From contig NC_011979.1 of NCBI RefSeq assembly GCF_000022265.1, forward strand, positions 3,300,001 to 3,332,000: DNA of 32,000 nucleotides, in the 5' to 3' direction. Shown in pieces: positions 1,323 through 30,880 of this stretch; position 1 is the first letter of the stretch, and every line of letters starts with the position of its first letter. The notes beneath the pieces were generated by a model that saw only the letters and a list, made by a program, of their open reading frames with translations, made no database searches and had not been told where the DNA came from. The position numbers were made by a program, and so were the translations under genes. The stretch comes from Geotalea daltonii FRC-32. Lineage in GTDB: Bacteria; Desulfobacterota; Desulfuromonadia; Geobacterales; Geobacteraceae.

Positions 1323-1334
1323 ATATGTGGGAAA

Positions 1335-1411
<77 letters not shown>

Positions 1412-1417
1412 ACAAAA

Positions 1418-1496
<79 letters not shown>

Positions 1497-2869: not shown

Positions 2870-2909
2870 AATTCTCCCTGATAATGATGGTTATTAAAAG
2901 CTGTGAAAT

Positions 2910-4058
2910 CTACAAGTCGGATTGGGGTTTGGCCTGAAGAACTGGCAGGTAAAGAACCCTGCCGATGGAAGTGTTGCTCTTCTTGTCGAAGATACGCTTG
3001 CCGGTGGTCGGGGTGCCCTCTCCCCACCAATTACCCATTGCCTTGAAATCATCTGCTCCGGCATTGTATAGGTCGTAATCCCCGTTGCCGACAAAAGTGT
3101 TTCCCCAGGCAACCCCCTTGCCGTCTTCCACCCTGAGACCCACCTTGCTGTTATGGGAAATGTCGTTGGCAGTCACCTTCACCCTGGCTTTGGACAGAGT
3201 AACGCCATAGTCTTTGTTTTTCAGGATCCTGTTTCCTGATAGCGTGCCTTCACCCTGGATCAGGGTAACGCCGCTGCCGTTGACACTGAAGCTGTTGCCA
3301 ATAATCCTGATCCGTCCTCCTTCGACTTTGACCGCCTCCAGGCTGTTGCTGTAGAATGTTGATCCACCCAGATAAAGGGAAGACTGGAAAGCAACTACCG
3401 CCTGTCCATTGCCTGAATAATTAACATCTCGCACATCAGCCTCGGTTTCCGTCAGTTCCAACCCGATATTGCAATTAGTGGCCCCGCCTCCGACGATAAC
3501 AGCCATGCAGTCCTGAATCCTGGCACCTGTGCCACAAGCCGCAAAACCGACATTTTTAAGGGTTATTCTGGAAAAAAGAGCCTCGATCCCAGTTTCAGCA
3601 CCTGTTATCCGGCAGTTTTCCAGGACATTTTTCTTGTCGCTGGACATGATGACGATCCCTTGCCAGTCTCCCTGTGTCGGCTCCGTATATAAAGAGGTGA
3701 AAACTACTGGTTTGTCTGCCCCCCCAAGTGCCTGGATTCTGCCATGTATCAAGAAAACCGGTTTGTCCCCACCAGGTGACTGCCTGAAGAAAACAGTGGT
3801 GCCTGGCTCTAGTGTAAGAGTTGCCTGAGGGGCAAGAATGAGTCCACCTTCGACAAGCACATTGCCCTTCCAGGTTACATCCTCGGCGATGGTCCTGTTT
3901 TTATAGGTCAGGTCGGCAACAGGAGACAGAACCGTACGATCCGGACTATCAGTTTTGTTATCCCGGTCTCCTGCGGTTGCCGGACCGGGATTTCCTGACA
4001 AAGCCAACCCCATGGCGACAGCAGCATAAACGCAGACTTTCTTGAAAATCAGATACAT
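2910..4058 (-). CDS. Secreted right-handed parallel beta-helix repeat protein (NosD/CASH-like)
   Basis: 382 aa. N-terminal signal peptide (MYLIFKKVCVYAAVAMGLALS). Repeated ~22-aa units (xGxxIxxxNCxIxG, GIxL, NxIxxN) typical of pectin-lyase-fold proteins. Confidence 0.65.
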   Translation of the reverse strand: MYLIFKKVCVYAAVAMGLALSGNPGPATAGDRDNKTDSPDRTVLSPVADLTYKNRTIAEDVTWKGNVLVEGGLILAPQATLTLEPGTTVFFRQSPGGDKPVFLIHGRIQALGGADKPVVFTSLYTEPTQGDWQGIVIMSSDKKNVLENCRITGAETGIEALFSRITLKNVGFAACGTGARIQDCMAVIVGGGATNCNIGLELTETEADVRDVNYSGNGQAVVAFQSSLYLGGSTFYSNSLEAVKVEGGRIRIIGNSFSVNGSGVTLIQGEGTLSGNRILKNKDYGVTLSKARVKVTANDISHNSKVGLRVEDGKGVAWGNTFVGNGDYDLYNAGADDFKAMGNWWGEGTPTTGKRIFDKKSNTSIGRVLYLPVLQAKPQSDL

Positions 4059-4077: not shown

Positions 4078-5184
4078 TTAAACCGCCGTCTCCTCCTTGC
4101 TGTAATACACCTTGTTCTTGCCGAACACCTTGGCCTGGTAAAGCAGTGCATCGACCTTTTCGAATAATTGATCCTTCTTGTCGGCGTCGACCGGATAAGA
4201 GGCTACTCCCACACTGACAGTAACTCCATGTCCGGCAAGCTTGGTGAATTTTGTCGCCGTTTCCGTCTCGATTATCTGGCGAAGCCGCTCTGCAACCTGG
4301 AATGCCTGCTCAAGGCGAGTTTCAGGCAGAAGAACGATGAATTCCTCTCCTCCATAACGAAAGGCATAGTCAACCCCCCTGAGTGTTCCAGCTATGAGCT
4401 CGCCGATGGAGGTAAGGACCAGATCCCCTGTCGAATGACCATATCTGTCATTGAATTTTTTAAAGTCATCAACATCAAGCATGATAATGGACAGATCCTT
4501 GTGATAGCGTTTACATCTGCCCATTTCAATGCTGAAAATATGGTGAAAATGGCGGTGGTTGTACAGACCGGTAAGGGCATCGGTTATGGCAAGAAGCTTT
4601 GTCCTGTTGTGCAGCTTGGCATTATAAATGGCCATGGCGGCAAATGAGGAAAGTACCGATAGAAGATTCATCCGCTCCTTGTCGAAGACACGGGGAACAA
4701 AATCGTCCAGGTACAGGACCCCCATCACCCGATCGCCAAAGGTAAGGGGAACGCAGACCAGCGACTGGATCCCTTCCCTGACCATCATGGGATTCTGGGA
4801 AAAATTGGCTGTAGCAGTATTTTCAACAAAGAAGATCTCCCTGGCCTTAAGTACCTGTTCCGTAAGTCCGCCAGGAGAGACATCCCAACGTTCCTTCTTG
4901 ATGAAGTCGGCAGTTAAACCCGAATGGGCATGCAGGGACAGCTCATGTTTGTTTTCGTCGTAAAGCCCCACGCTGCCGGCTGGCGTTTCAGCAAAATGCA
5001 TGGCGCTTGTCAGGATGGCCTGGAGCACCGTATCAAGATCCAAGGTGGAGACAACGGCCTTGGCCACTTCAATCAGCTCTTTCAGCGCTTTGACCTGCGC
5101 CTCCAGCGCGTCTCTTTCCTTATCCCTTGTCGCCATACTTACCCCGTTTGAATTAATCGGTAACTGATAGCACAATTTGTTCAC
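4078..5184 (-). CDS. GAF-domain diguanylate cyclase (GGDEF) with intact active site and I-site
   Basis: 368 aa. A coiled N-terminus, a GAF-like region, then a GGDEF domain with RYGGEEF and an RxxD I-site (RGVD) five residues upstream. An alternative start ATG at 5136 (MATRDKE) is preceded by GGGG. Confidence 0.85.
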   Translation of the reverse strand: MNKLCYQLPINSNGVSMATRDKERDALEAQVKALKELIEVAKAVVSTLDLDTVLQAILTSAMHFAETPAGSVGLYDENKHELSLHAHSGLTADFIKKERWDVSPGGLTEQVLKAREIFFVENTATANFSQNPMMVREGIQSLVCVPLTFGDRVMGVLYLDDFVPRVFDKERMNLLSVLSSFAAMAIYNAKLHNRTKLLAITDALTGLYNHRHFHHIFSIEMGRCKRYHKDLSIIMLDVDDFKKFNDRYGHSTGDLVLTSIGELIAGTLRGVDYAFRYGGEEFIVLLPETRLEQAFQVAERLRQIIETETATKFTKLAGHGVTVSVGVASYPVDADKKDQLFEKVDALLYQAKVFGKNKVYYSKEETAV

Positions 5185-5268
5185 CTTGTAAATGAGAACA
5201 CTGCCATGTTGGAAGAGTCTTCAGCACTTTTCACGTTGAATCAAACCCTTACGAAATATGCTTGACAG

Positions 5269-5284
5269 GCCATATATGTTGTGG
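5269..5284 (+). promoter_or_regulatory. NrdR box 1 (overlaps a TTGACA -35-like hexamer at 5262-5267)
   Basis: GCCATATATGTTGTGG. Its reverse complement CCACAACATATATGGC matches roughly 10 of 16 positions of the NrdR consensus acaCwAtATaTwGtgt. Confidence 0.6.
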
Positions 5285-5300
5285 TTTATTTCATGCCGTG

Positions 5301-5316
5301 CCACTAAATATAGTAT
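5301..5316 (+). promoter_or_regulatory. NrdR box 2
   Basis: CCACTAAATATAGTAT matches about 13/16 of the NrdR consensus. It is centred 32 bp (three helical turns) from box 1 and 42 nt upstream of the nrdJ ATG. Confidence 0.7.
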
Positions 5317-5357
5317 AAATTTGAAATACTAATTTAATTTCCAAGGAGAAAAGAAAC

Positions 5358-7586
5358 ATGAAAAAAACAACCAAGGGAAACATTCCGGGTTTATCGAAAA
5401 ATGCTGTCACTGTCCTGGAGAAGCGTTACCTGAAGCGGGACAAGGATGGAAAAGTACTCGAATCCCCCGTGGATATGTTTCGCCGGGTTGCCGAATCCAT
5501 TGCCGCAGCAGATGCAAGATTCGATAAAAAAGCCGATATCGCTGCTCTTGCCGACAAATTTTTTGCCATGATGACCTCCTTCGAATTTCTTCCCAACTCC
5601 CCCACATTGATGAACGCAGGTCGTGAGCTGGGTCAACTCTCCGCCTGTTTCGTCCTCCCGGTGGGAGATTCCATGGAAGAAATTTTCGATGCGGTAAAAC
5701 ACACTGCCCTCATCCACAAGTCCGGAGGGGGTACAGGTTTTTCATTTTCACGTCTCCGCCCGGCCAACGACATGGTCATGTCGACTACCGGCATTTCCAG
5801 CGGCCCCCTCTCCTTCATGCGCGTTTTTGATGTGGCTACCGAAACCATAAAGCAGGGAGGAACGAGACGCGGCGCCAACATGGGCATTCTGCGGGTCGAT
5901 CATCCCGATATCATGGATTTCATCATGTGCAAGGCAGATCAAAGACAGCTGAACAACTTTAACATCTCAGTCGGCCTTACCGAAGAATTCATGAAGGCTG
6001 TGGACGCAGATCGCGAGTATAACCTGATCAACCCACGCAGTGGTGAAAAAGCCGGTAGCCTCAACGCCCGCAAGGTCTTCAACCGGATCGTCAAGCAGGC
6101 CTGGGAAAATGGCGAGCCGGGCATCATCTTTATCGACCGCCTCAACAAGGACAACCCGACCCCCCACATCGGCCAGATCGAATCCACCAACCCCTGTGGA
6201 GAGCAACCGTTGCTACCCTACGAGTCGTGCAATCTGGGCTCAATAAATCTTGGCAAGATGGTGGAACATGGCGAAATCAACTGGCAGCGCCTCAAGGAGG
6301 TCATCCTGCTGGCAGTGAACTTCCTGGACAATGTCATCGAGGTCAACAACTATCCCCTCGAACAGATTGACGCCATGACCCGCGCCAACCGCAAGATCGG
6401 CCTGGGTGTCATGGGCTGGGCCGATTTGCTGATCCTGCTCGGCATCCCTTACAATTCCAAGGAAGCAATCGAGCTGGGCGAAAAAATCATGAAATTCATC
6501 AACGATGAAGGACATGCCGCCTCTGTGCAACTGGCAAAAGTTCGCGGGCCTTTCCCCAATTTCAAAGGCTCTATCTTTGACAAGCCGGGCATGGAGCCGA
6601 TCAGAAACGCAACTGTCACCACCATTGCACCCACCGGCACCATATCCATTATCGCCAACGCCTCTTCGGGTGTGGAGCCGCTCTTTGCCGTCTCCTTCAT
6701 CCGCCAGGTAATGGACAAAAATATTCTTCTCGAAGTTAATCCCATCTTTGAAGAAACGGCAAAAAAAGAGGGTTTTTATTCGGAAGAGCTGATGCAGAAA
6801 ATTGCCGAGCATGGCACTGTCCATGATATCCCGGAAATACCCGAACAGATCAGGAATGTGTTTGTCACCGCCCACGACATCACTCCTGAAGTTCATATTT
6901 CCATGCAGGCAGCCTTCCAGAAACATACAGACAATGCCGTCAGCAAAACGGTCAACTTCCCCAATTCGGCCACCATCGAAGAGGTGGAAAAGGTCTACCG
7001 TCTTGCCTATGAGACAAACTGCAAGGGGGTAACCATCTACCGCGACGGTTCCAGGGACGAACAGGTTCTTTCCACCGGAAAGAAGGATGAAGCACCGAAA
7101 ACCCTGCCGGTTGCCGATGAAAAACGGTCACACAAACGTGAGCGACCCAAGGCCCTCAAAGGGTGGACATATCAGATGCAGACCGGTTGCGGCCCCCTCT
7201 ATGTGACGGTCAACGAAGACAAGAGCGGTCTCTTTGAACTTTTCACCACCATGGGAAAGGCCGGCGGCTGTGCCGCTTCACAGAGCGAAGCTATCGGTCG
7301 AATGGTATCACTGGCATGGCGCAGTGGCATTCAGGCGCGCCAGGTTATCAAGCAGCTGCTGGGCATTTCCTGCCACTGTCCGGCCGGCTTCGGTGAAAAC
7401 AAGGTTCTTTCCTGCGCCGACGCTGTAGCCAAAGCAATTCAGGCACACATGCAGGAAAGCGGCATCGATATGGGCATAGAGCAGGCCGCCTTCGACCGTG
7501 GAGCATGCCCCGAATGCGGCGGCATCGTCGAACACGAGGGAGGATGCGCCGTCTGCCGGGTCTGCGGCTATAGTGAATGCGCGTAA
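5358..7586 (+). CDS. nrdJ: Adenosylcobalamin-dependent ribonucleoside-di/triphosphate reductase, class II
   Basis: 742 aa. Motifs LPNSPTLMNAG, SACFVL, GGGTGFSFSRLRP, active-site TNPCGEQPL. C-terminal CPECGG...CAVCRVCG zinc ribbon. Good RBS (AAGGAGAA). Confidence 0.92.
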   Translation: MKKTTKGNIPGLSKNAVTVLEKRYLKRDKDGKVLESPVDMFRRVAESIAAADARFDKKADIAALADKFFAMMTSFEFLPNSPTLMNAGRELGQLSACFVLPVGDSMEEIFDAVKHTALIHKSGGGTGFSFSRLRPANDMVMSTTGISSGPLSFMRVFDVATETIKQGGTRRGANMGILRVDHPDIMDFIMCKADQRQLNNFNISVGLTEEFMKAVDADREYNLINPRSGEKAGSLNARKVFNRIVKQAWENGEPGIIFIDRLNKDNPTPHIGQIESTNPCGEQPLLPYESCNLGSINLGKMVEHGEINWQRLKEVILLAVNFLDNVIEVNNYPLEQIDAMTRANRKIGLGVMGWADLLILLGIPYNSKEAIELGEKIMKFINDEGHAASVQLAKVRGPFPNFKGSIFDKPGMEPIRNATVTTIAPTGTISIIANASSGVEPLFAVSFIRQVMDKNILLEVNPIFEETAKKEGFYSEELMQKIAEHGTVHDIPEIPEQIRNVFVTAHDITPEVHISMQAAFQKHTDNAVSKTVNFPNSATIEEVEKVYRLAYETNCKGVTIYRDGSRDEQVLSTGKKDEAPKTLPVADEKRSHKRERPKALKGWTYQMQTGCGPLYVTVNEDKSGLFELFTTMGKAGGCAASQSEAIGRMVSLAWRSGIQARQVIKQLLGISCHCPAGFGENKVLSCADAVAKAIQAHMQESGIDMGIEQAAFDRGACPECGGIVEHEGGCAVCRVCGYSECA

Positions 7587-21720: not shown

Positions 21721-21968
21721 AACTCAAACAGTTGCTTTTGCTGAGTCTGCGGACCAGAGAGTCATGGGTGATCTTTTTCATTCTGGGGATCATCATGATG
21801 AATTATCCCTTCATATCCATTTTCAACAAGCCGATTTACTTCTTTGACCTGCCTCTTCTTTACCTTTATTTGCAACTGGGCTGGCTCATCTCCATCTTTG
21901 TCATCTTCCTTTTCACCAAAGCAAATCATTTTGCCGACAAGAACAACAACCACAAGGGGCGCAGTTAA
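21711..21968 (+). CDS. Small two-TM membrane protein (possible SSS accessory subunit)
   Basis: 85 aa with two hydrophobic helices. ATG 21711 or 21717 overlaps the upstream stop (ATGA), and its stop overlaps the next start (TAATG). Confidence 0.5.
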   Translation: MRMKLKQLLLLSLRTRESWVIFFILGIIMMNYPFISIFNKPIYFFDLPLLYLYLQLGWLISIFVIFLFTKANHFADKNNNHKGRS

Positions 21969-24900
21969 TGGTCAGTGCCGAACTGGTCTGGGGGATATCA
22001 ATCCTCTATATAGCTCTCCTCTTTCTGGTAGCTTACCTGGCTGACAAAAAGCAGAGAGAAGGCCAAAGCATTACCTCCAATGCAGTTGTCTATTCTCTTT
22101 CAATCGCCGTTTATGCCACATCCTGGACCTTTTACGGCAGCGTAGGCAAGGCAGCCACAACCGGTCTGGATTTCATACTCATCTATCTGGGGCCTTCACT
22201 GACAGCCTTTTCCTGGTGGTTTCTGCTACGCAAGATCATCCGGGTAACCAAAGAAAACAACACCACATCACTGGCCGACTTCGTCAGCTCTCGCTATGGC
22301 AAGTCCCAGTGGCTTGGCGCACTGGTTACCATCATCTCCATTACCGGTATAATGCCCTACATCGCACTGCAACTCAAAGCTGTTTCCAGCGCCTTTTCCA
22401 TCCTGACTGGCCATCCGGATTTCCATCTGCGTTTCATGGACAGCATTTCCCTCCCCTCACCCCACCCAGGCTTTTTTTCCGCCCTGATACTGGCTGCTTT
22501 CAGCGTCATTTTCGGCGCCCGGCACCTCGTGTCATCGGAACGTCATGAGGGGATGGTTGCAGCCATTGCAGTTGAATCCATAGTCAAACTCGTGGCTTTT
22601 CTCACCGTCGGCATCTTTGTCACCTATTTCCTCTTTGACGGCATCGGCGACATTTTCCAACGCATGTACGTGAAAGATCCTGTCCTTACTGAACAACTGA
22701 TAACCTTAGGTGATGAACAGGAAACCTCCTATACAACTTTGTTCACCATGCTGTATCTGTCAATGGGGGCTATCATGTTTCTCCCGAGACAGTTTCAGAT
22801 AATGGCCATAGAGAACTCTTCAGAAAAACACATCACCAAAGCCATGTGGCTTTTCCCCTTCTACATGTTTCTGATCAACATCTTCGTCATGCCCATCGCA
22901 ATGGGTGGCATTCTCATCACCGGCAGCAATCTCAATTCAGATTACTTCGTCCTGACTATCCCTTTACAGACAGGAAACCAGTGGATAGCGCTCATTGCCT
23001 ATATTGGCGGTTTTTCCGCAGCCGCCGGCATGGTGATGGTTGAATCGGTCACCATTTCAACCATGCTGCTCAATCATGTCATCATGCCGATCGTAATAAG
23101 ACTGAAACCGCGAACCTGGTTTCCTGAGCTGCTCATCAACACCAAGAGGGGCGGGATCTTCCTGGTGGTCTTTCTCGGCTACTTCTATCAGAATATCGTC
23201 GGCGAGACATATATGCTTGTGACCATGGGGCTCATTTCCTTTGCCGCCGCCGCCCAGTTCGCCCCTGCCGTGCTCGGCGGCCTCTACTGGCACCGTGGCA
23301 ACAAAGTCGGCGCCATCACCGGTATGTTCCTCGGCTTTATCGTCTGGTTTTACACTTTGCTGGTCCCTTCATTTATAAGATCCGGATGGTGGAACAGCGA
23401 CATCATGACCAACGGACCGTTCGGGCTCCGCTTTCTGAGGCCCACTGAACTCTTCGGCCTTACCGGGTTCGACATGTGGAGTCATGCCCTGTTCTGGAGC
23501 CTCTTTTTCAACTTGGGCACATATCTGATACTCTCCATCCTGACAGATCAGGACGAAAAAGAACAGGAGCAGGCAAGGAGATTCATTGATGTCTTATCCC
23601 CCGAAAGGGGCAAGGCTCGATGGGAAACCAAGCGTCTTTCCAAGCCGGTGACCATTCTGCAGTTCGTAAACCTGATGGCGAAATTTATCGGTGAAGCCCA
23701 GGCCCATGCGGCAATCAGCGACTACATAGGCAACAGGGAGATTGACAGCCGGGGTGGAGTTTCAGAGTTCGAGCTGCCCGACCTGAAGCGCTTCATTGAA
23801 AAGACTTTGGCCGGTTCCCTTGGCGCTGCAGCGGCGGGGGCCGTTGTCGAAAGCTATCTCACCGACGTCGGTTCGAAGATGGAGTCGGTCTACGACATAT
23901 TCAGCACTGTCCGCACCTCCCTCGACCAGAGCAGAGAGGCGCTTTTCGTAAGGCTCAGGGCATCGGAGATCATGAACCGCTCCCTGGATCTGAAAATCAT
24001 CATGAAAGACCTGCTGGAATTGTTGCAGAAGGAGTTCAAATTCGATCTTTGCATAATCAGGCTTGTGGACGAAAAAGGCATTTTGACCGTCACTGCCTAT
24101 ATCGGACCTGAAGATCAGCAGATAACGAAGAACAACTGGGTTCCTGAAATAGATACCCACATCGGGGAAGCATTTCTCAGCAACAGAACCGAATTTGTCA
24201 ACGACACCCGATACCTGACCAAGCAGAAATCAAAGGAGATCATGGAACGTGAAGGGATAAAATCCTTCGCCCACATTCCCATCGCCAGCGAAGGTGAACC
24301 GCCGGTCGGCATACTCTCAGTATTCTCCAAGTCGATTATCGGATTATTTACCGAACCTTTCCTCCAACTGCTGGGAAGCCTTGCCGGCCAGCTTGCCCAG
24401 GCAGTCAGGATCGTTTCGGAGCGTGAAGCAAAGGAGAAGGAACGGCAACAGAAAGAGGCAGCCCTGTTGGAAAACGCACGGGTTGTACGGGACATGGAGA
24501 TTGCCAAACAGATACAGCTTTCACTGCTGCCCGCTTCTCCCCCCGATCTGCCGGGGGTGCGCTTTGCCAGTTGCTGCGTTCCTGCCGCACATGTGGGTGG
24601 TGATTATTATGATTTCTTTGTTCGTGGTAAAGACAAGGTTGACCTGATAATCGCCGATGTTTCCGGACACAGTGTGGGAGCCGCACTGATCATGGTCGAG
24701 ACACGTAGCGTTCTCAGGGCACAGGTACCACTGACCACATCCAGCAGTGAAGTCCTTGCCTCGCTGAATGGGCTACTGTATGAGGACTTGACCAGGGCGG
24801 AACTTTTCATCACCATGTTTTATGCCAGTTACGATGCAGGCACCAGACTTCTCCGCTATGCAAATGCGGGTCACAACCCGCCATTGATCATGAACCCGCG

Positions 24901-25210
24901 AGGATCAGCCTGCATCGAACTGGATGCAGAAGGGCTCATACTCGGCATAAACCGCTCAGTTTCCTTCGAAGAAAAGCTATTTCAGCTGCATGCGGGTGAT
25001 CTGGTACTATTGTATACGGATGGTATCATAGAGGCACAAAACGACGCAGGAGAACTTTTTGGCGTGGACAGGCTCTGCATGATCCTCAATGGGATGTCTC
25101 AGGAATCACCCGACAGAATTATGGAGAAGGTGCTGGCTGAAGTTACTCAGTTTGCCGGGTCTAAACCACTGGAAGATGACATCTCAATGATAATAATGAA
25201 GATCGACTGA
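21968..25210 (+). CDS. Sensor phosphatase: SLC5/sodium:solute-symporter-like membrane domain - STAC-like linker - GAF - PP2C/SpoIIE (RsbU-type) phosphatase
   Basis: 1080 aa with about 13 TM helices (aa 1-530) and an SSS-sensor-like N-terminus (LLFLVAYLADKK). FIEKTLAGSLGAAAAGAVVESYL is STAC-like. GAF spans about aa 650-800. PP2C motifs ADVSGHSVGAAL, YANAGHNPP, LYTDGIIEAQ, DDISMII. Confidence 0.85.
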   Translation: MVSAELVWGISILYIALLFLVAYLADKKQREGQSITSNAVVYSLSIAVYATSWTFYGSVGKAATTGLDFILIYLGPSLTAFSWWFLLRKIIRVTKENNTTSLADFVSSRYGKSQWLGALVTIISITGIMPYIALQLKAVSSAFSILTGHPDFHLRFMDSISLPSPHPGFFSALILAAFSVIFGARHLVSSERHEGMVAAIAVESIVKLVAFLTVGIFVTYFLFDGIGDIFQRMYVKDPVLTEQLITLGDEQETSYTTLFTMLYLSMGAIMFLPRQFQIMAIENSSEKHITKAMWLFPFYMFLINIFVMPIAMGGILITGSNLNSDYFVLTIPLQTGNQWIALIAYIGGFSAAAGMVMVESVTISTMLLNHVIMPIVIRLKPRTWFPELLINTKRGGIFLVVFLGYFYQNIVGETYMLVTMGLISFAAAAQFAPAVLGGLYWHRGNKVGAITGMFLGFIVWFYTLLVPSFIRSGWWNSDIMTNGPFGLRFLRPTELFGLTGFDMWSHALFWSLFFNLGTYLILSILTDQDEKEQEQARRFIDVLSPERGKARWETKRLSKPVTILQFVNLMAKFIGEAQAHAAISDYIGNREIDSRGGVSEFELPDLKRFIEKTLAGSLGAAAAGAVVESYLTDVGSKMESVYDIFSTVRTSLDQSREALFVRLRASEIMNRSLDLKIIMKDLLELLQKEFKFDLCIIRLVDEKGILTVTAYIGPEDQQITKNNWVPEIDTHIGEAFLSNRTEFVNDTRYLTKQKSKEIMEREGIKSFAHIPIASEGEPPVGILSVFSKSIIGLFTEPFLQLLGSLAGQLAQAVRIVSEREAKEKERQQKEAALLENARVVRDMEIAKQIQLSLLPASPPDLPGVRFASCCVPAAHVGGDYYDFFVRGKDKVDLIIADVSGHSVGAALIMVETRSVLRAQVPLTTSSSEVLASLNGLLYEDLTRAELFITMFYASYDAGTRLLRYANAGHNPPLIMNPRGSACIELDAEGLILGINRSVSFEEKLFQLHAGDLVLLYTDGIIEAQNDAGELFGVDRLCMILNGMSQESPDRIMEKVLAEVTQFAGSKPLEDDISMIIMKID

Positions 25211-25320
25211 CAAAAAAGCGGGGCGCAGCTAAAAACAATTTGTTGAAGGTGGTGCTGCGGTGTTATAAACTATGAAATTAATGATACAACAATCATATCC
25301 CGTTTCAGAGGGGGCACATC

Positions 25321-25656
25321 ATGAATCTGCGGACTGAACTAAAGAATGACATAGTGATCATTTATGTTAATGAGGAAAGACTTGACGCCCATAATTCAGG
25401 TGAATTGAAGGTCGAGGTGCAGAAGCTTTTCGAACAGGGCCGAAAAAACATGCTCATCGACCTGAAAGATGTTCGCTTCATCGACAGTTCCGGGCTGGGA
25501 GCCCTCGTCTCCGGATTCAAAAACGCCATTTCCCATCAGGGCAACCTGAAGCTTTCGACCCTGCAGTCACAGGTAAAATCAATGTTCGAACTGACCAGGT
25601 TGCACAGGGTTTTTGAAATATTTCCCTCTACCGCAGAAGCACTTGAAAACTTCTAA
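25321..25656 (+). CDS. STAS-domain anti-sigma-factor antagonist (RsbV/SpoIIAA family)
   Basis: 111 aa. Conserved phosphorylatable serine context FIDSSGLGALV. RBS GAGGGGG. Confidence 0.88.
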   Translation: MNLRTELKNDIVIIYVNEERLDAHNSGELKVEVQKLFEQGRKNMLIDLKDVRFIDSSGLGALVSGFKNAISHQGNLKLSTLQSQVKSMFELTRLHRVFEIFPSTAEALENF

Positions 25657-25669
25657 ATGTGAGGCTCAG

Positions 25670-26095
25670 ATGGAAAGAAACGAGATAGAGGTAGATATCA
25701 AGGTCCCCAATCAGACCCGCTACTTGAGTCTCATAGGCCGGATCGGTGAAGACATTGCCAAGGAACTGGTCAGATATACAGGCGACAGGGATACGCTGGC
25801 CTATCATCTGAATCTTGTGCTGACAGAAGCCATGGTAAATGCCATAAAACATGCCGGCAGTGAAGATTCAGACAACCTGGTGCACATCATCATCAATATC
25901 TGTGAAAGCGAGCTGACAATCAAGGTGTTCGATTCGGGACAAGGGTTCGATATCAATATCATCCCCCCCCCCGATTTCGAGGAACTGGAAGACCGGGGTC
26001 GCGGCATTTTCATGATAAAATCGCTGATGGACTCAGTGTCTTACAAAAAAATGTGCGACGGCAACATTCTGGAAATGAAAAAGAAGCTGCAATAA
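25670..26095 (+). CDS. RsbW/SpoIIAB-type serine protein kinase (HATPase_c, anti-sigma-factor-like)
   Basis: ATG at 25670 after GAGG. N-box EAMVNAIKHA, G1 box FDSGQGF, G2 box GRGIFMIKSL. 141 aa. Confidence 0.85.
   Translation: MERNEIEVDIKVPNQTRYLSLIGRIGEDIAKELVRYTGDRDTLAYHLNLVLTEAMVNAIKHAGSEDSDNLVHIIINICESELTIKVFDSGQGFDINIIPPPDFEELEDRGRGIFMIKSLMDSVSYKKMCDGNILEMKKKLQ
25963..25972 (+). repeat. C10 homopolymer inside the RsbW-like kinase CDS
   Basis: ATCATCCCCCCCCCCGAT encodes I-I-P-P-P-D, between the G1 and G2 ATP-binding boxes. It is the longest G/C homopolymer I found in the window. Confidence 0.95.
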
Positions 26096-27004: not shown

Positions 27005-27033
27005 TTGACAAAAAATGTCTCGGGGCATATAAA
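27005..27033 (+). promoter_or_regulatory. Sigma70-type promoter driving the M-box leader
   Basis: TTGACA (27005-27010), 17-nt spacer, TATAAA (27028-27033). Confidence 0.6.
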
Positions 27034-27043
27034 TTTCAGGAAA

Positions 27044-27205
27044 TTCCTCGTTAGGAAGAGGCGTTAGCACAAACAGAAGCTACTGCCCAGAAACGTCGAA
27101 AGACGCCAATGCGGTAGACCAGATTCAGTCGGATTAAGGCTTTATCTAAGGTAGCTGGTGGTGGTTCACCTACGTTGTGCTCTGCTAAAACTCAAACCAG
27201 GGGAA
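27044..27205 (+). ncRNA. M-box (ykoK leader) Mg2+-sensing riboswitch aptamer
   Basis: Conserved M-box blocks in the right order: CGUUAGG-AGAGGC, CUGCCCAGAAACGUCGAAAGACGCCAAUG, UUAAGGC, GUAGCUGG, ACGUUGUGCUCUGCUAAAACUC. This closely parallels the B. subtilis mgtE leader as I recall it. Confidence 0.85.
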
Positions 27206-27226
27206 AATGGTGTCCTTTTGCGCATG

Positions 27227-27257
27227 AGGCCCTTTCTCCCTGAAAGGGCCTTTTCTT
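27227..27257 (+). terminator. Intrinsic terminator forming the M-box expression platform
   Basis: AGGCCCTTT-CTCCCTG-AAAGGGCCT followed by TTTTCTT, immediately upstream of the CDS. Confidence 0.8.
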
Positions 27258-27281
27258 GTGAATACAGACCAAAAGGACATA

Positions 27282-28538
27282 ATGAGCGAGATCTTTCTCA
27301 GTACCGTGCTGGGAAAGACCGTCATCAACGCCCAGGGGCACGAGATCGGCAAATTATGGGACCTGATCATGGTTCCCGGCGAAGTGTTTCCCCAAGTCTC
27401 GCACCTTTTGGTAAAAAAGGGCTCGCGGGTCCTGGCCCTGCCCTGGAAACGCATCTCCCTTTTCAACCGTTATGTCATTTCCGTATCCGGCACCTCAAGC
27501 CATACTCCCGAATATCTGCCCAGAGAGAACGAGATCCTCGTCAAACGCCACATCCTCGACAAACAGATTGTGGACGTCAACGGGGCGAAGGTGGTTCGGG
27601 TCAATGACCTGAAGCTTGGCAGCTACAAGGACCACCTCTGCATATTCTTCGTCGATATCGGCTTCAGAGGGCTGCTGCGCCGCCTTGGGTATGAACGCCT
27701 CGGAGAAAAAATTGCCAGCTTTATGAAGATCAAGCTGGCACACCAGCATATCAGCTGGGAATATGTGCAACTGCTGGAAATGAACCTGTCCCGGCTGACT
27801 CTGACCGTTGCCCGGGAACAGATGCAGGAACTTCACCCTGCCGACCTTGCCCATATCATCTCCAGAATACCTGCCAAAAACATCCAGACCGTTTTGAACT
27901 CCCTGGATACGGAAACCGCAGGTGAAGCCATTCATGAACTGGAACCAGAGCTCAGAAGCCGCATCATCAGCCAGCTGGACAGTGAGCAGGCCTCTGACAT
28001 CCTGGAAGAAATGGATCCTGACGAAGCGGCCGACGTCCTCGGCGACCTCCCCGAAGAAAAGGCCCAGGAGCTGCTGGGTTTGATGGATGAGGAAGAGGCT
28101 GAGGATATTCAGGAACTCATGGAACACGAAGAAGATACCGCCGGCGGACTGATGAACAGTGAGTTTCTGTCTGTATCCAGCGAGCTCATGGTTGCTGATG
28201 CCATGAAGGTGGTAAGGCTTTTGGCCCCGGATGTGGAAACGGTCTATTACATTTATGTTGTGGATAAGGAAGAGCGCTTACAGGGGGTCATCAGTCTGAA
28301 GGAATTAATTCTGGCCCATGAGGAAGAACCTGTCTCCGAACTCATGACCACCAATCTGAAGACAGTGGGTGTTGAATCCACCCCGGAAGAAATTCTCGAA
28401 ATCATAGCCAAGTACAACCTGATAGCTGTGCCGGTTCTTGACAAGGAAGAAAAGATGGCAGGGTTGGTAACGGTTGACGATGTCCTGGAAATGTTCCTGC
28501 CTTACGCCCTGAAACGCAGACGATATCACCACCATTAG
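27282..28538 (+). CDS. Soluble PRC-barrel - MgtE_N - tandem CBS protein (MgtE cytosolic module without the membrane domain)
   Basis: ATG at 27282 with AAGGA 4 nt upstream; the track's GTG at 27258 sits in the terminator tail. PRC-like N-terminus (LGKTVINAQGHEIGKLWDLIM). Acidic MgtE_N helices (LHPADLAHIISRIP...DPDEAADVLGDLPEEKAQELL). Two CBS motifs (GVISLKELI, GLVTVDDVLE). It ends without TM segments. Confidence 0.75.
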   Translation: MSEIFLSTVLGKTVINAQGHEIGKLWDLIMVPGEVFPQVSHLLVKKGSRVLALPWKRISLFNRYVISVSGTSSHTPEYLPRENEILVKRHILDKQIVDVNGAKVVRVNDLKLGSYKDHLCIFFVDIGFRGLLRRLGYERLGEKIASFMKIKLAHQHISWEYVQLLEMNLSRLTLTVAREQMQELHPADLAHIISRIPAKNIQTVLNSLDTETAGEAIHELEPELRSRIISQLDSEQASDILEEMDPDEAADVLGDLPEEKAQELLGLMDEEEAEDIQELMEHEEDTAGGLMNSEFLSVSSELMVADAMKVVRLLAPDVETVYYIYVVDKEERLQGVISLKELILAHEEEPVSELMTTNLKTVGVESTPEEILEIIAKYNLIAVPVLDKEEKMAGLVTVDDVLEMFLPYALKRRRYHHH

Positions 28539-28572: not shown

Positions 28573-29871
28573 ATGTTTACCGGCATCAGCATAACGAAGT
28601 TGTTCAAGCCCATCCGCAAGGTGAACAGAAAGAACATCTTTCTCTTTCTCGCCATCCTCGGGCCGGGAATAATTACCGCCAACGTGGATAACGATGCCGG
28701 CGGCATAACCACCTATTCACTGGCCGGCGCCCACTACGGCTACACCCTTCTTTGGGTCATGATCCCGACCATGATTGCCCTGGTTGTTATTCAGGAGATG
28801 TGCGCCCGCATGGGAGCGGTGACGGGCAAGGGGCTGTCGGACCTGATACGGGAGTCATTCGGCGTAAAGGTAACTTTCTATGTAATGATCGCCCTCCTGC
28901 TCACCAACATGGGCAACTCCGTTTCCGAATTCGCCGGAATTGCCGCCAGCCTTGAGTTGTTCGGCATCAGCAAATATGTGTCCGTCCCCATAAGTGCCGT
29001 CCTGGTATGGCTTCTGGTGGTGAAGGGCTCCTACAAGGTAGTGGAAAAGGTCTTCCTCGTGGCTTGCATGGTTTATATAGCCTACCCTGTCGCAGCATTC
29101 ATGGCCGGCCCCCAATGGGGCACAGTTCTTAAGGCAACCGTAGTCCCCAGTTTCCGCATGGACAGCGGCTACCTGATCACCCTCATCGGTGTCGTCGGTA
29201 CGACCATTGCTCCATGGATGCAGTTCTACCAGCAATCCGCCGTCGTCGAAAAGGGAATAACCATAGAACAGTACAGCTTTTCCCGGATGGATGTCATAGT
29301 CGGCTGCCTGATGGCCATCGTCGTCGCCTTTTTCATCGTCGTTGCCTGCGCCGCCACCATAAACCTGCAGGGGCTAAAGGTGGAGACCGCTGCAGATGCC
29401 GCTCTCGCCCTTAAACCCCTGGTGGGAGAGTATGCATCATCACTGTTCGCCTTCGGCCTTTTCAATGCTTCACTCTTTGCCGCCTGCATCCTCCCCCTTT
29501 CCACTTCCTACTACGTCTGCGAAGGAATGGGATGGGAGTCGGGGATCGACAAGGATTTCAGGCAGGCGCCCCAGTTTTTCTGGCTTTTCACCATCATCAT
29601 CGTCATCAGCGCGCTTACCATTCTCCTGCCCAACGTCCCACTGATCATGATCATGTTCATTTCGCAGGTGGTAAACGGCACAGTGCTTCCCTTCGTTCTC
29701 ATCTTCATGCTGCTCCTGATCAATGACAAAAGCCTGATGGGTAACCATACCAATGGTCATGTATTCAATTTTATTGCCTGGATCACCGTTGTTGTCATGA
29801 TTGGCCTGACGCTACTCATGACCGCAGATCTGCTGTCTCCCGGTGCAGTGGGAAGAATATTCGGGTTTTGA
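28573..29871 (+). CDS. NRAMP-related transporter with NRMT-type (Mg2+) binding-site substitutions
   Basis: 432 aa with about 11 TM helices and NRAMP-like GPGIITANVDNDAGGI...YGYTLLW. The canonical TM1 DPGN is DAGG (28693-28704). The canonical TM6 A-x-x-M-P-H is T-T-I-A-P-W (29200-29217). Confidence 0.8.
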   Translation: MFTGISITKLFKPIRKVNRKNIFLFLAILGPGIITANVDNDAGGITTYSLAGAHYGYTLLWVMIPTMIALVVIQEMCARMGAVTGKGLSDLIRESFGVKVTFYVMIALLLTNMGNSVSEFAGIAASLELFGISKYVSVPISAVLVWLLVVKGSYKVVEKVFLVACMVYIAYPVAAFMAGPQWGTVLKATVVPSFRMDSGYLITLIGVVGTTIAPWMQFYQQSAVVEKGITIEQYSFSRMDVIVGCLMAIVVAFFIVVACAATINLQGLKVETAADAALALKPLVGEYASSLFAFGLFNASLFAACILPLSTSYYVCEGMGWESGIDKDFRQAPQFFWLFTIIIVISALTILLPNVPLIMIMFISQVVNGTVLPFVLIFMLLLINDKSLMGNHTNGHVFNFIAWITVVVMIGLTLLMTADLLSPGAVGRIFGF

Positions 29872-29925
29872 ACCAAGGTCTGCGCCGGTAACTTGAGCAG
29901 TGCCTCCCTTTGAAGTAAAAATAGA

Positions 29926-29949
29926 AAAGCCCGGCATGCCGGGCTTTTT
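29926..29949. terminator. Bidirectional rho-independent terminator
   Basis: AAAAGCCCGGC-AT-GCCGGGCTTTT: a perfect stem flanked by A-run and T-run, between convergent genes. Confidence 0.85.
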
Positions 29950-29961: not shown

Positions 29962-30501
29962 CTATTCCATCACATTCGGTGGCACACCAGCCTTTGCCGC
30001 AGATGCGTTAAAGGCATCCAGCTTCTTTCTCAGGTCGTTAAGTCTCGATTCCGTGTTCTTTACCGTATGCTGAAGGCTTAAGTACTCTGCACGGGACATC
30101 CTGGTTGTATCGCCCAGACGCCCATTCAGTTGATCCAGTTGTTCTTCTGCAGCCTTGACATCAGCTGAAAGCTTTCCGTATTCGGCCTTCCAGGCAGCTT
30201 CATTCTTACCACCATAAACGGCAGGCTTCTTTTTGGTTTCCGCTCCGGCAACATCTTCCCTTACCTTGCTCTGCCCCTCTTCCGCCGTAGTCTTTCCCTT
30301 TTCGCCATTGTCCGTCTCGATTACCCGGGGTTGAGAATCCTCTTCTGCCCCCAGTATTTTTACGCGCTTGCGGTACTTTTTAGGCACATTGCCCAAATCT
30401 TCCGTAAAATTGACCGTTCCTCTCTCATCAGTCCATTCATAGGTCACGGCGAATGCCGGCACAGCAAAAAGGAGAAGAGAAAATACTAGTAAGGTTTTCA
30501 T
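29962..30501 (-). CDS. Secreted DUF4124-like protein with coiled-coil C-terminus
   Basis: ATG at 30501 preceded by GGAGG. Signal peptide MKTLLVFSLLLFAVPAFA followed by VTYEWTDERGTVNFTED (DUF4124 signature). The upstream extension in the track overlaps the HIT gene. Confidence 0.7.
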   Translation of the reverse strand: MKTLLVFSLLLFAVPAFAVTYEWTDERGTVNFTEDLGNVPKKYRKRVKILGAEEDSQPRVIETDNGEKGKTTAEEGQSKVREDVAGAETKKKPAVYGGKNEAAWKAEYGKLSADVKAAEEQLDQLNGRLGDTTRMSRAEYLSLQHTVKNTESRLNDLRKKLDAFNASAAKAGVPPNVME

Positions 30502-30535
30502 GCAATTCCTCCACTTGATTAATCTATCTGTGTTG

Positions 30536-30880
30536 TTAGCCGGGAGGCCAGTTGAACTGCCTCCCACCGAGAAGGTGAAAGTGAATGTGAAATACCGACT
30601 GACCCGCTCCGGCATTATTGTTGTTGACGACACGGAAACCGTCCTCAGCAATGCCTCTTTCGCGGGCGATGGCTGCAGCGACCCGAAACACATGTCCTAT
30701 CAGGGCTTCGTCCTCCGGTTGAAGGTCAAGGGTATTGGCCACATGCTTTTTAGGGATGACAAGCAGATGTTGCGGCGCAACCGGAGCAATGTCCTGGATC
30801 ACCAAAAGCTGGTCGTCCTCGAAGACCGGCTTGACTGGGATTTCGCCTTTAATCATCCTGCAGAAGAGACAATCCGTCAT
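30536..30880 (-). CDS. HIT (histidine triad) family nucleotide hydrolase
   Basis: ATG at 30880 preceded by GGGAGGGGG. CLFCRMIKGEIP and histidine triad HIHFHLLGG. Confidence 0.88.
   Translation of the reverse strand: MTDCLFCRMIKGEIPVKPVFEDDQLLVIQDIAPVAPQHLLVIPKKHVANTLDLQPEDEALIGHVFRVAAAIARERGIAEDGFRVVNNNNAGAGQSVFHIHFHLLGGRQFNWPPG

What the first reader, a model, noticed from the sequence alone, without database searches (positions are those of the whole stretch)
27282..28538. MgtE cytosolic sensor (N domain + CBS pair) detached, fused to a PRC barrel and paired with an NRAMP-fold transporter
In MgtE the N domain and CBS pair are covalently attached to the pore and close it when Mg2+ binds their acidic surfaces. 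Here the same module has highly acidic helices (EEMDPDEAADVLGDLPEEKAQELLGLMDEEEAEDIQELMEHEED). It ends without any TM domain, carries an extra N-terminal PRC barrel, and is encoded 35 nt upstream of an NRMT-type transporter under one M-box. Hypothesis: a trans-acting Mg2+-sensing gating or regulatory subunit has been recruited to an unrelated transporter fold. That would give two layers of Mg2+ feedback, at the RNA and protein levels. I am not aware that such a two-component NRMT system has been characterised.
Basis: inference. Interest (0 to 1): 0.7.

Follow-up and report, generated by a model that had tools for sequence, protein, structure and literature searches.

The report
Detached MgtE magnesium sensor beside NRMT transporter
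A magnesium riboswitch controls a two-gene operon that encodes a pore-less copy of the MgtE channel's magnesium-sensing domain and an NRAMP-type magnesium transporter; this widespread pairing was already noted in 2014, and the sensor's job has still not been tested properly.

Summary
An M-box riboswitch (27040-27209) with a terminator hairpin precedes a 418-aa protein with no membrane segment (27282-28538). It consists of two PRC barrels, an MgtE_N domain, a CBS pair and a short basic tail. An NRMT-clade NRAMP gene follows 34 nt downstream (28573-29871).

The pairing is strongly conserved. In 63 of 73 informative genome loci, across more than 12 phyla, the sensor has an NRMT directly downstream. 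In 63 of 75 informative metagenome loci, the NRMT has the sensor directly upstream, and 69 of 75 have it nearby.

It is not new. Shin et al. 2014 (PLoS Genet) described the "MgtE-like fragment" next to NrmT genes, often under M-boxes, and proposed feedback regulation. I found no functional follow-up.

New details:
- The PRC barrels are not an add-on. Full PRC-MgtE channels exist, and one Nitrospirota channel is 71% identical to a soluble form up to the end of the CBS pair.
- At that point the channel's acidic plug helix is replaced by a proline plus a basic tail.
- The interdomain Mg2+ ligands (Mg4, Mg6, Mg7) are kept. The Mg2/Mg3 positions are charge-reversed.
- Close relatives of EleNRMT, the NRMT with a solved structure, also carry the partner gene.

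A trans-acting Mg2+ gate is the best reading, but it is unproven.

The parts
27005..27033 (+). Promoter-like site TTGACA, 17-nt spacer, TATAAA. It ends 6 nt before the first base of the M-box match.
   Evidence: Read directly from the sequence. The scan did not list it because that scan requires T at position 6 of the -10 hexamer. Inference only.
27040..27209 (+). M-box (ykoK-type) Mg2+ riboswitch aptamer, full length
   Evidence: Rfam RF00380, 133.9 bits against a gathering score of 44, E 3e-30, model positions 1-169 of 169. My own covariance model R1 gives 155.5 bits.
27226..27262 (+). Expression platform: an 11-bp GC-rich hairpin (27226-27252) followed by TTCTTGTGAA, resembling an intrinsic terminator
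   Evidence: Terminator scan. RNA fold of 27195-27275 gives -27.7 kcal/mol, z = -2.3, and keeps this hairpin. I did not identify the anti-terminator pairing.
27273..27277 (+). Shine-Dalgarno-like AAGGA, 4 nt before the ATG at 27282
   Evidence: Sequence. This favours the ATG at 27282 over the in-frame GTG at 27258, which lies in the terminator's T-tract.
27282..28538 (+). Sensor gene: 418-aa soluble PRC-PRC-MgtE_N-CBS-CBS protein with a basic tail
27282..27485 (+). PRC barrel 1 (aa 1-68), net charge +4
   Evidence: Pfam PF05239. Beta-strands in the AF2 model, pLDDT about 80-93. Charge.
27534..27776 (+). Second beta-barrel (aa 85-165) with a helical insert. It holds the most conserved motifs of the family (D-x-Q-I-V-D-x-x-G-x-K-V-V-R-V-N-D and D-I-G-x-R-G-L-L-R-R-L-G). 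Net charge +6.
   Evidence: AF2 model. Conservation over 150 representatives at 50% clustering. Pfam did not call it in the window protein, although two PRC stretches are called in relatives.
27831..28136 (+). MgtE_N helical domain (aa 184-285), net charge -26. It contains the Mg7 (E215), Mg4 (D247) and Mg6 (D251) ligand equivalents.
   Evidence: Pfam. Alignment to 2yvy. Residue mapping. Site assignments from PMC5882242.
28149..28496 (+). CBS pair (aa 290-405), net charge -14. It contains the Mg4 partner D400 and the Mg5 equivalents N379 and E403.
28497..28535 (+). C-terminal tail LPYALKRRRYHHH (aa 406-418): a proline followed by a basic cluster. It replaces the acidic plug helix of MgtE. K411 and R412 sit at the positions of the Mg2 and Mg3 ligands E258 and D259.
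   Evidence: The tail is disordered in the AF2 model.
28573..29871 (+). NRMT-clade NRAMP transporter gene (432 aa), with AAAGGA 8 nt before the ATG
   Evidence: Pfam 3e-106. EleNRMT 7qia 3e-125. Motifs D-A-G-G (aa 41-44) and T-T-I-A-P-W (aa 210-215) match the NRMT signature DxxG / TxxA-T given in PMC8806188. Ribosome-binding site.
29925..29948 (.). Palindromic GC-rich hairpin AAAAGCCCGGCATGCCGGGCTTTT, 54 nt after the NRMT stop codon. It is the likely end of the operon and may act in both directions.
   Evidence: Terminator scan. The next gene (DUF4124, 29962-30693) is on the opposite strand.

Best explanation
This is a two-gene Mg2+-uptake operon of a known kind.

An M-box riboswitch ends transcription when cytosolic Mg2+ is high. 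When Mg2+ is low, it lets through (a) a soluble protein and (b) an NRMT-type NRAMP transporter that imports Mg2+ (and Mn2+) without proton coupling. The soluble protein is the complete cytosolic regulatory module of a PRC-bearing MgtE channel, cut off exactly where the acidic plug helix and pore would begin, and ending in a proline plus a basic tail.

The soluble protein most likely acts as the cytosolic Mg2+ sensor that the transporter lacks. Mg2+ would bind the retained acidic sites between the N domain and the CBS pair (Mg4, Mg6 and Mg7 equivalents) and compact the module, as in MgtE. In that state it would restrain the NRMT. It would dock on the inner membrane face or on the transporter through its basic tail and basic PRC barrels, not through Mg2+-bridged acidic contacts as in MgtE.

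Shown here: domain identity, operon structure, conservation of the pairing, retention of the ligand residues, and the tail replacement. Inferred: physical contact, the direction of regulation (inhibition at high Mg2+), and the docking role of the tail and PRC barrels.
For: Identity of the parts.

Conserved pairing:
- 63 of 73 informative genome loci have an NRAMP homolog directly downstream on the same strand. They span Desulfuromonadota, Nitrospirota, Chloroflexota, Acidobacteriota, Firmicutes, Coriobacteriales, Dormibacterota, Eremiobacterota and others.
- The gaps are mostly -4 to +30 nt, and 15 are 4-nt overlaps.
- All 61 partner transporters carry the NRMT signature.
- In the reverse survey, 63 of 75 informative metagenome NRMT loci have the sensor directly upstream, and 69 of 75 have it within 3.5 kb.

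Same sensor, two output formats: complete PRC-MgtE channels exist and stand alone, with no NRAMP neighbour. In Nitrospirota, channel P0126 and soluble P0440 are 71% identical up to TVDDI.D, where homology stops.

Sensor chemistry is retained. In 122 soluble representatives the Mg4 ligands D91/D247 are D in 109 and 110, the Mg6 ligand D95 is D in 120, and the Mg7 ligand E59 is E or D in 109. These sites are functionally defined in PMC5882242.

The tail differs systematically. Soluble forms have a net charge of +2.8 (representatives) to +4.1 (NRMT-paired loci), and 78% have a proline in the first six tail residues. Channels have -4.7 and no proline. Orphan sensors keep the basic tail, so it is not a by-product of the downstream ribosome-binding site.

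Logic from established knowledge: EleNRMT is an uncoupled Mg2+/Mn2+ transporter (PMC8806188). CorA and MgtE have cytoplasmic gating domains that couple transport to intracellular Mg2+ demand (PMC4072509). Shin et al. proposed the same role for this fragment.
Against: - No interaction was predicted or measured. A complex prediction could not be run with these tools.
- NRMTs transport without the partner, both in B. subtilis complementation (PMC4072509) and in proteoliposomes (PMC8806188). The partner is therefore not required for activity.
- The only co-expression test (A. capsulatum Acp2976 with Acp2977) changed nothing. That assay looked for improved rescue at low Mg2+, not for inhibition at high Mg2+. 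The same transporter behaved mainly as a Mn2+ transporter.
- About 14% of sensor genes (10 of 73) have no adjacent NRMT.
- The Mg5 site is weakened. N379 corresponds to the D226N change that was used to disable Mg5 in T. thermophilus MgtE.
- The correlation of pairwise distances between sensors and partner transporters is only r = 0.42.
- EleNRMT is described as monomeric; MgtE is described as a dimer. The stoichiometry is therefore unclear.
Confidence: 0.55

Rival explanations
1. Metal chaperone or buffer. The very acidic soluble protein takes Mg2+ (or Mn2+) from the cytosolic exit of the NRMT, or buffers it locally, without gating the transporter.
For: Shin et al. proposed this as an alternative (PMC4072509). 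The MgtE_N and CBS regions carry net charges of -26 and -14. The A. capsulatum pair appears to handle Mn2+.
Against: Per Shin et al., free cytosolic Mg2+ is about 0.5-2 mM, so a stoichiometric chaperone seems unnecessary (inference). The residues that are conserved are specifically the interdomain clamp ligands of MgtE, not general acidity. The same module is a gating domain when fused to an MgtE pore.
Confidence: 0.12
2. Autonomous cytosolic Mg2+ (or Mg-ATP/adenylate) sensor. Its main target is something other than the NRMT. Operon linkage would then only reflect co-regulation under Mg2+ limitation.
For: 10 of 73 informative loci are orphans, yet they keep intact genes and the basic tail. These include a Geomonas locus syntenic with the window but lacking the NRMT (L006). 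CBS pairs, including that of MgtE, bind ATP (PDB 5x9g appears among the fold matches). The PRC barrels are the most conserved part and have no assigned partner.
Against: Adjacency of 84-92% in both directions across more than 12 phyla, with frequent 4-nt overlaps, is typical of subunits of one system. An orphan sensor may serve an NRMT encoded elsewhere in its genome, which I could not check.
Confidence: 0.15
3. Positive factor. The sensor activates, stabilises or helps assemble the NRMT at low Mg2+, rather than inhibiting it at high Mg2+.
For: Where an M-box is present, both genes are induced together at low Mg2+. EleNRMT and other NRMTs were unstable in detergent when purified alone (PMC8806188).
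Against: NRMTs complement Mg2+-transport mutants and transport in liposomes without the partner. Co-expression did not improve rescue.
Confidence: 0.08
4. Decaying remnant of an MgtE gene that lost its pore, with no function.
For: It lacks the pore and plug. One locus (L029) has a frameshifted copy and no NRMT.
Against: Intact full-length ORFs occur in 80 loci from many phyla at 33-70% identity. There are 1194 clusters at E<=1e-30, a count that also includes true MgtE channels. Specific motifs and a specific new tail are conserved.
Confidence: 0.01

Closest known systems
The 'MgtE-like fragment'-nrmT operons described by Shin et al. 2014 (PLoS Genet 10:e1004429; C. acetobutylicum Ca_c0685 operon, A. 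capsulatum Acp2976/Acp2977)
   Same: A gene homologous to the MgtE N-terminal cytoplasmic domain sits immediately upstream of an NRMT-clade NRAMP gene and is co-transcribed under an M-box. The same regulatory hypothesis applies.
   Different: This copy comes from a Geobacteraceae-like genome; the Geotalea uraniireducens locus shows the same gene order. It is a single gene, not split in two as in C. acetobutylicum. The PRC barrels, the basic tail and the ligand pattern are not mentioned in that paper ('PRC' and 'CBS' have 0 occurrences).
MgtE Mg2+ channel (T. thermophilus; PDB 2yvx, 2zy9, 2yvy)
   Same: The N domain and CBS pair match in sequence (6e-40) and fold (Foldseek 9e-20). The ligands of Mg4, Mg6 and Mg7 are conserved. 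In B. subtilis MgtE the same two control layers operate: the M-box and, in MgtE channels generally, cytosolic-domain gating.
   Different: It has no plug helix and no 5-TM pore. The Mg2/Mg3 ligand positions are Lys and Arg. Two PRC barrels lie at the N-terminus. The transport partner is an unrelated LeuT-fold carrier.
PRC-bearing MgtE channels (about 600 aa; for example P0126 and P0424 from Nitrospirota)
   Same: Identical architecture up to the end of the CBS pair. P0126 is 71% identical to the soluble form P0440.
   Different: They continue into an acidic plug helix and the PF01769 pore, and they stand alone in the genome without an NRAMP neighbour.
EleNRMT (Eggerthella lenta; PDB 7qia; Ramanadane et al. 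2022, eLife 11:e74589)
   Same: The window transporter aligns end to end with it (3e-125) and has the same DxxG / TxxA binding-site signature.
   Different: EleNRMT was studied alone. Its closest natural relatives (91-92% identical) have a 450-aa PRC-MgtE_N-CBS gene ending 4 nt before the transporter gene, and no M-box.
CorA and CNNM/CorC cytosolic Mg2+-sensing domains
   Same: The general logic is the same: a cytosolic Mg2+-binding (or Mg-ATP-binding) domain gives feedback control over a Mg2+ pathway.
   Different: Those domains are covalently attached to the transporter. Here the sensor is a separate polypeptide. This comparison is from general knowledge and was not tested here.

Membership tests
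MgtE Mg2+ channel (TIGR00400 / PF01769) | Transmembrane pore domain (PF01769, 5 TM helices) | tested here: not met
   No PF01769 hit. The highest 19-residue hydropathy mean is 1.24. The protein ends 13 residues after the CBS pair.
MgtE Mg2+ channel (TIGR00400 / PF01769) | Full-length equivalog score | tested here: not met
   TIGR00400 scores 174 bits against a cut-off of 232.75 and matches only model positions 18-250 of 450.
MgtE Mg2+ channel (TIGR00400 / PF01769) | Cytosolic N domain plus CBS pair with acidic Mg2+ ligands | tested here: met
   PF03448 4.7e-29 and PF00571 1.1e-17. PDB 2yvy 6e-40. Mg4, Mg6 and Mg7 ligands conserved; Mg5 partly.
MgtE Mg2+ channel (TIGR00400 / PF01769) | Acidic plug helix carrying the Mg2/Mg3 ligands (E258, D259) | tested here: not met
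   It is replaced by L-P-Y-A-L-K-R-R-R-Y-H-H-H, with K411 and R412 at those positions.
NrmT-associated MgtE-like fragment (Shin et al. 2014) | Stand-alone gene homologous to the MgtE N-terminal cytoplasmic domain | tested here: met
NrmT-associated MgtE-like fragment (Shin et al. 2014) | Encoded next to, and co-oriented with, an NrmT-clade NRAMP gene | tested here: met
   The gap is 34 nt and there is no terminator between the genes. The same arrangement holds in 63 of 73 and 63 of 75 informative loci.
NrmT-associated MgtE-like fragment (Shin et al. 2014) | M-box upstream (present in many members, not all) | tested here: met
   RF00380 at 133.9 bits. An M-box is present in only 10 of the 80 genome loci and 4 of the 80 metagenome loci.
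NRMT clade of SLC11/NRAMP (downstream gene) | Binding-site signature DxxG (alpha1) and TxxA/T (alpha6) in place of DxxN and AxxM | tested here: met
   D41-A-G-G44 and T210-T-I-A213. The signature is as defined in PMC8806188.
NRMT clade of SLC11/NRAMP (downstream gene) | Loss of the two alpha6b histidines used for H+ coupling | tested here: met
   The sequence A-P-W-M-Q-F-Y-Q-Q-S has W and Q where classical NRAMPs have His. EleNRMT has W and N.
NRMT clade of SLC11/NRAMP (downstream gene) | Mg2+ transport that is not coupled to H+ | not testable with these tools
   Inferred from the end-to-end match (3e-125) to EleNRMT.
M-box riboswitch (RF00380) | Full aptamer above the gathering score, followed by an expression platform | tested here: met
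   Model positions 1-169 of 169, 133.9 bits. Terminator hairpin 17 nt downstream. I did not identify the anti-terminator.
PRC barrel (PF05239) | PRC-barrel fold at the N-terminus | tested here: met
   Barrel 1: 27.8 bits against a cut-off of 21.2. Barrel 2 (aa 85-165) rests only on the AF2 model and on second PRC stretches called in relatives.
Trans-acting gating subunit of a transporter (functional class) | Physical, Mg2+-dependent interaction with the NRMT that alters transport | not testable with these tools
Only genomic association is available.

The most novel reading that the evidence does not exclude
The detached PRC-MgtE_N-CBS protein is a true trans-acting Mg2+ gate. A sensor that evolved as the covalent lid of a channel (MgtE) has been released and re-used as a soluble regulatory subunit of an unrelated LeuT-fold carrier (NRMT). 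It would dock through a new basic tail and its PRC barrels, in place of Mg2+-bridged acidic contacts. Coriobacteriales would show an intermediate form, in which a sensor still anchored by a degenerate, probably non-conducting MgtE membrane domain sits next to the NRMT. This would be a documented case of a regulatory module moving between two transporter folds, and it would explain how an uncoupled Mg2+ uniporter is kept from overloading the cell.
Probability: 0.35. Interest if true: 0.7.

Novelty: new member of a known kind. Interest (0 to 1): 0.4.

Why it matters
NRMTs are the fourth class of bacterial Mg2+ importers. By homology with EleNRMT, transport is probably not coupled to protons, and the transporter has no cytosolic domain. 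How flux is limited is therefore an open question.

The partner gene has been known since 2014 but has had only one preliminary co-expression test. The structural and biochemical NRMT model, EleNRMT, was studied without it, although its close relatives encode it 4 nt upstream.

The comparative data here turn a vague idea into precise experiments:
- which residues to mutate: D247/D400, D251 and E215, plus the K/R tail;
- which natural controls exist: PRC-MgtE channels whose sensor is about 70% identical;
- which expression system is ready: the Eggerthellaceae pair.

If the gating role is confirmed, it would show that a channel's sensor domain can work as a portable subunit on a different transporter fold.

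Tried and rejected
- Single-sequence AF2 of the sensor gave an unusable model (pLDDT 45.5). I repeated it with a 69-sequence alignment (pLDDT 81.6, pTM 0.44). Domain folds are trustworthy but inter-domain packing is not.
- A complex prediction was not possible.
- The mirror-tree correlation between sensor and NRMT distances across 61 pairs was r = 0.42. That is too weak, and too confounded by phylogeny, to use either way.
- I expected the M-box to be general. It is not: 10 of the 80 genome loci, 4 of the 80 metagenome loci, and none in the close relatives L003, L005 and L006 or in Eggerthellaceae. 'Two layers of feedback' therefore applies to a minority that includes this window.
- I considered that the basic tail might come from purine-rich ribosome-binding sequence overlapping the gene end. 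I rejected this because the window has a 34-nt gap and orphan sensors keep the tail.
- I considered that the long (about 620-aa) partners in Coriobacteriales carry an unrelated membrane anchor. I rejected this because hhalign shows a divergent MgtE membrane domain (97% probability).
- Two papers searched for Mg2+-site residue lists gave nothing. The assignments came from PMC5882242.
- Literature searches for follow-up work on the partner protein found none. The library lacks most subscription journals.
- An NJ tree of 146 representatives did not resolve one versus several fission or fusion events. Channel forms fall into 11 separate groups, most of them near each other.
Full report
WHAT IS THERE

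The window holds a compact unit on the + strand.
- A promoter-like TTGACA-17-TATAAA lies at 27005-27033. I read it; the scan did not list it.
- A full-length M-box riboswitch aptamer lies at 27040-27209 (RF00380, 133.9 bits, gathering score 44).
- A strong hairpin with a T-run follows at 27226-27262.
- A 418-aa ORF starts at the ATG at 27282, which has an AAGGA 4 nt upstream, and ends at 28538.
- After a 34-nt gap with its own ribosome-binding site, a 432-aa ORF runs from 28573 to 29871.
- A palindromic GC-rich hairpin lies at 29925-29948.

The flanking genes have no apparent link to metal transport and are either on the opposite strand or separated by lgt. They are a partner-switching module (transmembrane region-GAF-SpoIIE/PP2C, STAS, anti-sigma-type kinase), lgt, DUF4124, HIT and a TlyA-like methyltransferase. 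The operon therefore has two genes.

THE TWO PROTEINS

Protein 1, the sensor:
- Pfam finds PRC (1-66), MgtE_N (184-285, 4.7e-29) and a CBS pair reaching about residue 404.
- The MgtE equivalog model matches only its cytosolic half and scores below its cut-off.
- The best solved relatives are MgtE cytosolic domains, by sequence (2yvy, 6e-40) and by fold.
- No hydrophobic segment reaches transmembrane level.
- An AF2 model built on 69 homologs (pLDDT 81.6) shows two beta-barrels (1-68 and 85-165), the helical N domain, the CBS pair and a disordered tail.
- Charge is strongly segregated: barrels +4 and +6, N domain -26, CBS pair -14, tail +4.

Protein 2, the transporter:
- It is an NRAMP (3e-106) whose closest structure is EleNRMT (7qia, 3e-125, aligned end to end).
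- It carries the NRMT binding-site signature DxxG / TxxA and lacks the two alpha6b histidines.

IS THE PAIRING CONSERVED?

Survey A started from the sensor. I aligned the N-terminal 285 residues of 22 diverse family members and scanned one genome per species.
- All 80 best loci encode full-length relatives (33-70% identity).
- They come from Desulfuromonadota, Nitrospirota, Chloroflexota, Acidobacteriota, Firmicutes, Coriobacteriales, Dormibacterota, Eremiobacterota, Armatimonadota, Binatota, Methylomirabilota and others.
- Of 73 loci with enough downstream sequence, 63 have an NRAMP homolog immediately downstream on the same strand.
- Gaps are mostly between -4 and +30 nt, and 15 are 4-nt overlaps.
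- All 61 full-length partner transporters carry the NRMT signature.

Survey B started from the transporter, using metagenome contigs.
- Of 75 informative loci, 63 have the sensor directly upstream on the same strand.
- Six more have it within 3.5 kb. Two of these are convergent downstream.
- Six have none.

The association is therefore ancient and tight in both directions. Ten sensor genes are orphans. One is a Geomonas locus that is syntenic with the window but lacks the transporter.

PRIOR KNOWLEDGE

Shin et al. 2014 (PMC4072509) discovered NrmT through M-boxes. [quoted passage not shown]
- They speculated that it provides cytoplasmic feedback regulation or acts as a chaperone.
- Co-expression of the A. 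capsulatum pair did not change rescue of a Mg2+-transport mutant, and that transporter behaved mainly as a Mn2+ importer.
- The ancillary gene was not needed for complementation.

The 2022 EleNRMT study does not mention a partner ('accessory' and 'operon' have 0 occurrences). Three full-text searches found no later work on it. The finding is a new member of a described kind of operon, and the role of its second gene is still open.

WHAT THE COMPARISON ADDS

(1) The PRC barrels are not an addition made on detachment.
- Among the 150 best cluster representatives, 22 are about 600 aa long.
- Of the nine of these that I scanned with Pfam, six have the MgtE pore domain PF01769 after the same PRC-MgtE_N-CBS module.
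- Two such channels that I examined stand alone, with no NRAMP neighbour.

(2) In Nitrospirota, channel and soluble forms are very close.
- Soluble P0440 is 71% identical to channel P0126 over the whole module. The barrels are the most conserved part (up to 93% identity in 30-residue windows).
- Homology stops exactly after TVDDI.D. The channel continues VMEDEATEDIYRLAG (the acidic plug), whereas the soluble form ends RILPPKAKRKRKKV.

(3) This replacement is general.
- Soluble tails have a median length of 16 residues, a proline among the first six in 78%, and a net charge of +2.8 (+4.1 in NRMT-paired loci).
- Channel forms have -4.7 and no proline.
- In the window, K411 and R412 occupy the positions of E258 and D259, the Mg2 and Mg3 ligands of T. 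thermophilus MgtE.

(4) The ligands of the interdomain sites are retained.

| T. thermophilus MgtE site | Ligand(s) | Window residue(s) | In 122 soluble representatives |
|---|---|---|---|
| Mg4 | D91 / D247 | D247 / D400 | D in 109 / 110 |
| Mg6 | D95 | D251 | D in 120 |
| Mg7 | E59 | E215 | E or D in 109 |
| Mg5 | D226 / D250 | N379 / E403 | first position N in 60, D in 30; second D or E in 90 |

D214 and E216 are strongly conserved in the PRC-MgtE channels (D in 21 of 22, E in 19 of 22) but relaxed in the soluble family.

(5) Coriobacteriales MAGs (L039, L040) have a 621-636-aa partner next to the NRMT. Its C-terminal part is a divergent MgtE membrane domain (hhalign 97%, E 4.6e-11). The glycine-rich pore motif is replaced there, for example by RIAEEISTRS. 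This is a possible intermediate form.

(6) The closest natural relatives of EleNRMT (91-92% identical; Paraeggerthella and related genera) have a 450-aa PRC-MgtE_N-CBS gene ending 4 nt before the transporter gene.

(7) M-boxes are a minority feature.
- They occur in 10 of the 80 genome loci and 4 of the 80 metagenome loci. Geotalea has one. Several close relatives and the Eggerthellaceae have none.

HOW IT MOST LIKELY WORKS

Shown:
- An M-box with a terminator precedes both genes.
- The first gene encodes the MgtE sensor module with its interdomain Mg2+ ligands, but without the plug or pore.
- The second gene encodes an NRMT.
- The two genes are inherited together across phyla.

Established elsewhere:
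- M-boxes switch expression off at high Mg2+.
- Mg2+ binding at Mg4-Mg7 closes the N and CBS domains of MgtE and is needed for channel closure (PMC5882242).
- EleNRMT is an uncoupled Mg2+/Mn2+ transporter.

Inferred: the soluble module senses cytosolic Mg2+ by the same clamp motion and, in the compact state, restrains the NRMT. This would supply in trans the feedback gate that CorA and MgtE carry in cis. The charge-reversed tail and the basic barrels are the obvious candidates for docking to the membrane surface or the transporter. I put the regulatory-subunit reading at about 0.55.

The rivals are set out in the rival-explanations section: chaperone or buffer, an autonomous sensor with another target, a positive factor, and a decaying remnant.

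The main evidence against the best explanation:
- No interaction data exist.
- NRMTs work alone.
- There is one negative, though poorly suited, co-expression test.
- 14% of sensors are orphans.
- The Mg5 site is weakened.

VERDICT

It is a new member of a known kind. Interest is moderate (0.4). A specialist would not be surprised by the pairing. The role of the partner is a real open question that has stood since 2014, and the details found here make it directly testable: the sensor shared with PRC-MgtE channels, the plug-to-basic-tail swap, the retained clamp ligands, and the partner next to close relatives of EleNRMT.

Noticed in passing
P0126, P0153, P0164, P0188, P0226 and others; loci L167 4001-5824 and L168 4001-5818: A subfamily of complete MgtE channels (about 600 aa) carries the same two N-terminal PRC barrels. 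Two that I examined stand alone, with no NRAMP neighbour. In Nitrospirota their sensor part is up to 71% identical to soluble NRMT-type sensors.
   Followed up: yes
L040 4932-6842 and L039 56-1921 (Coriobacteriales MAGs); also P0175, P0197, P0207, P0220: Here the NRMT partner is 611-636 aa long. It keeps the acidic plug and has a divergent MgtE membrane domain that Pfam does not recognise and whose glycine-rich pore motif is replaced. It may be a non-conducting, membrane-anchored sensor next to the NRMT.
   Followed up: partly
L163-L166 (Paraeggerthella and other Eggerthellaceae), sensor 2644-3996, NRMT from 4001: The closest natural relatives (91-92% identical) of EleNRMT, the NRMT with a solved structure, have a 450-aa PRC-MgtE_N-CBS gene ending 4 nt before the transporter gene, and no M-box. 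The EleNRMT paper does not mention a partner.
   Followed up: yes
L105 530-3467 and L106 334-3467 (metagenome contigs): Three-gene arrangement: M-box, then an OprB-family outer-membrane porin gene (PF04966, 1.8e-36), then the sensor, then the NRMT. This suggests riboswitch control of an outer-membrane entry route as well.
   Followed up: partly
L054 4287-4464 and 4605-4776 (Pelosinus MAG): Two M-box aptamers in tandem (154.6 and 168.6 bits) lie upstream of the sensor-NRMT pair.
   Followed up: no
L070 1633-2892, 2920-4272, 4277-5596 (Chloroflexota MAG): Two sensor genes flank a single NRMT gene, all on the same strand.
   Followed up: no
L006 (Geomonas MAG), sensor 4986-6251: This locus has the same gene order as the window (SpoIIE/STAS/kinase, lgt, sensor, DUF4124, HIT, methyltransferase), but the NRMT gene is absent and no M-box was found. 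Nine other orphan sensors were seen (L012, L017, L020, L029, L035, L052, L055, L076, L077). L029 is frameshifted.
   Followed up: partly
L037 (labelled Methanobacteriaceae archaeon MAG) and L024 (labelled Saccharimonadales MAG): Sensor-NRMT pairs occur in bins assigned to an archaeon and to a CPR bacterium. This is either horizontal transfer of the cassette or mis-binning.
   Followed up: no
window 21968-26095 (+): A partner-switching module lies just upstream, separated from the operon by lgt on the opposite strand. It comprises a 1080-aa protein with a long hydrophobic N-terminal region (weak SSF hit in the Geotalea ortholog), GAF and SpoIIE/PP2C phosphatase domains, followed by a STAS protein and an anti-sigma-type HATPase kinase. 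The same gene order holds in Geotalea uraniireducens (L001).
   Followed up: partly
window 1113-1496 (-): A cluster of four tRNA genes (55.7-76.1 bits).
   Followed up: no
window 27005-27033 (+): A near-consensus sigma-70 promoter, TTGACA-17-TATAAA, ends 6 nt before the M-box. The promoter scan missed it because the scan demands T at the last -10 position.
   Followed up: partly
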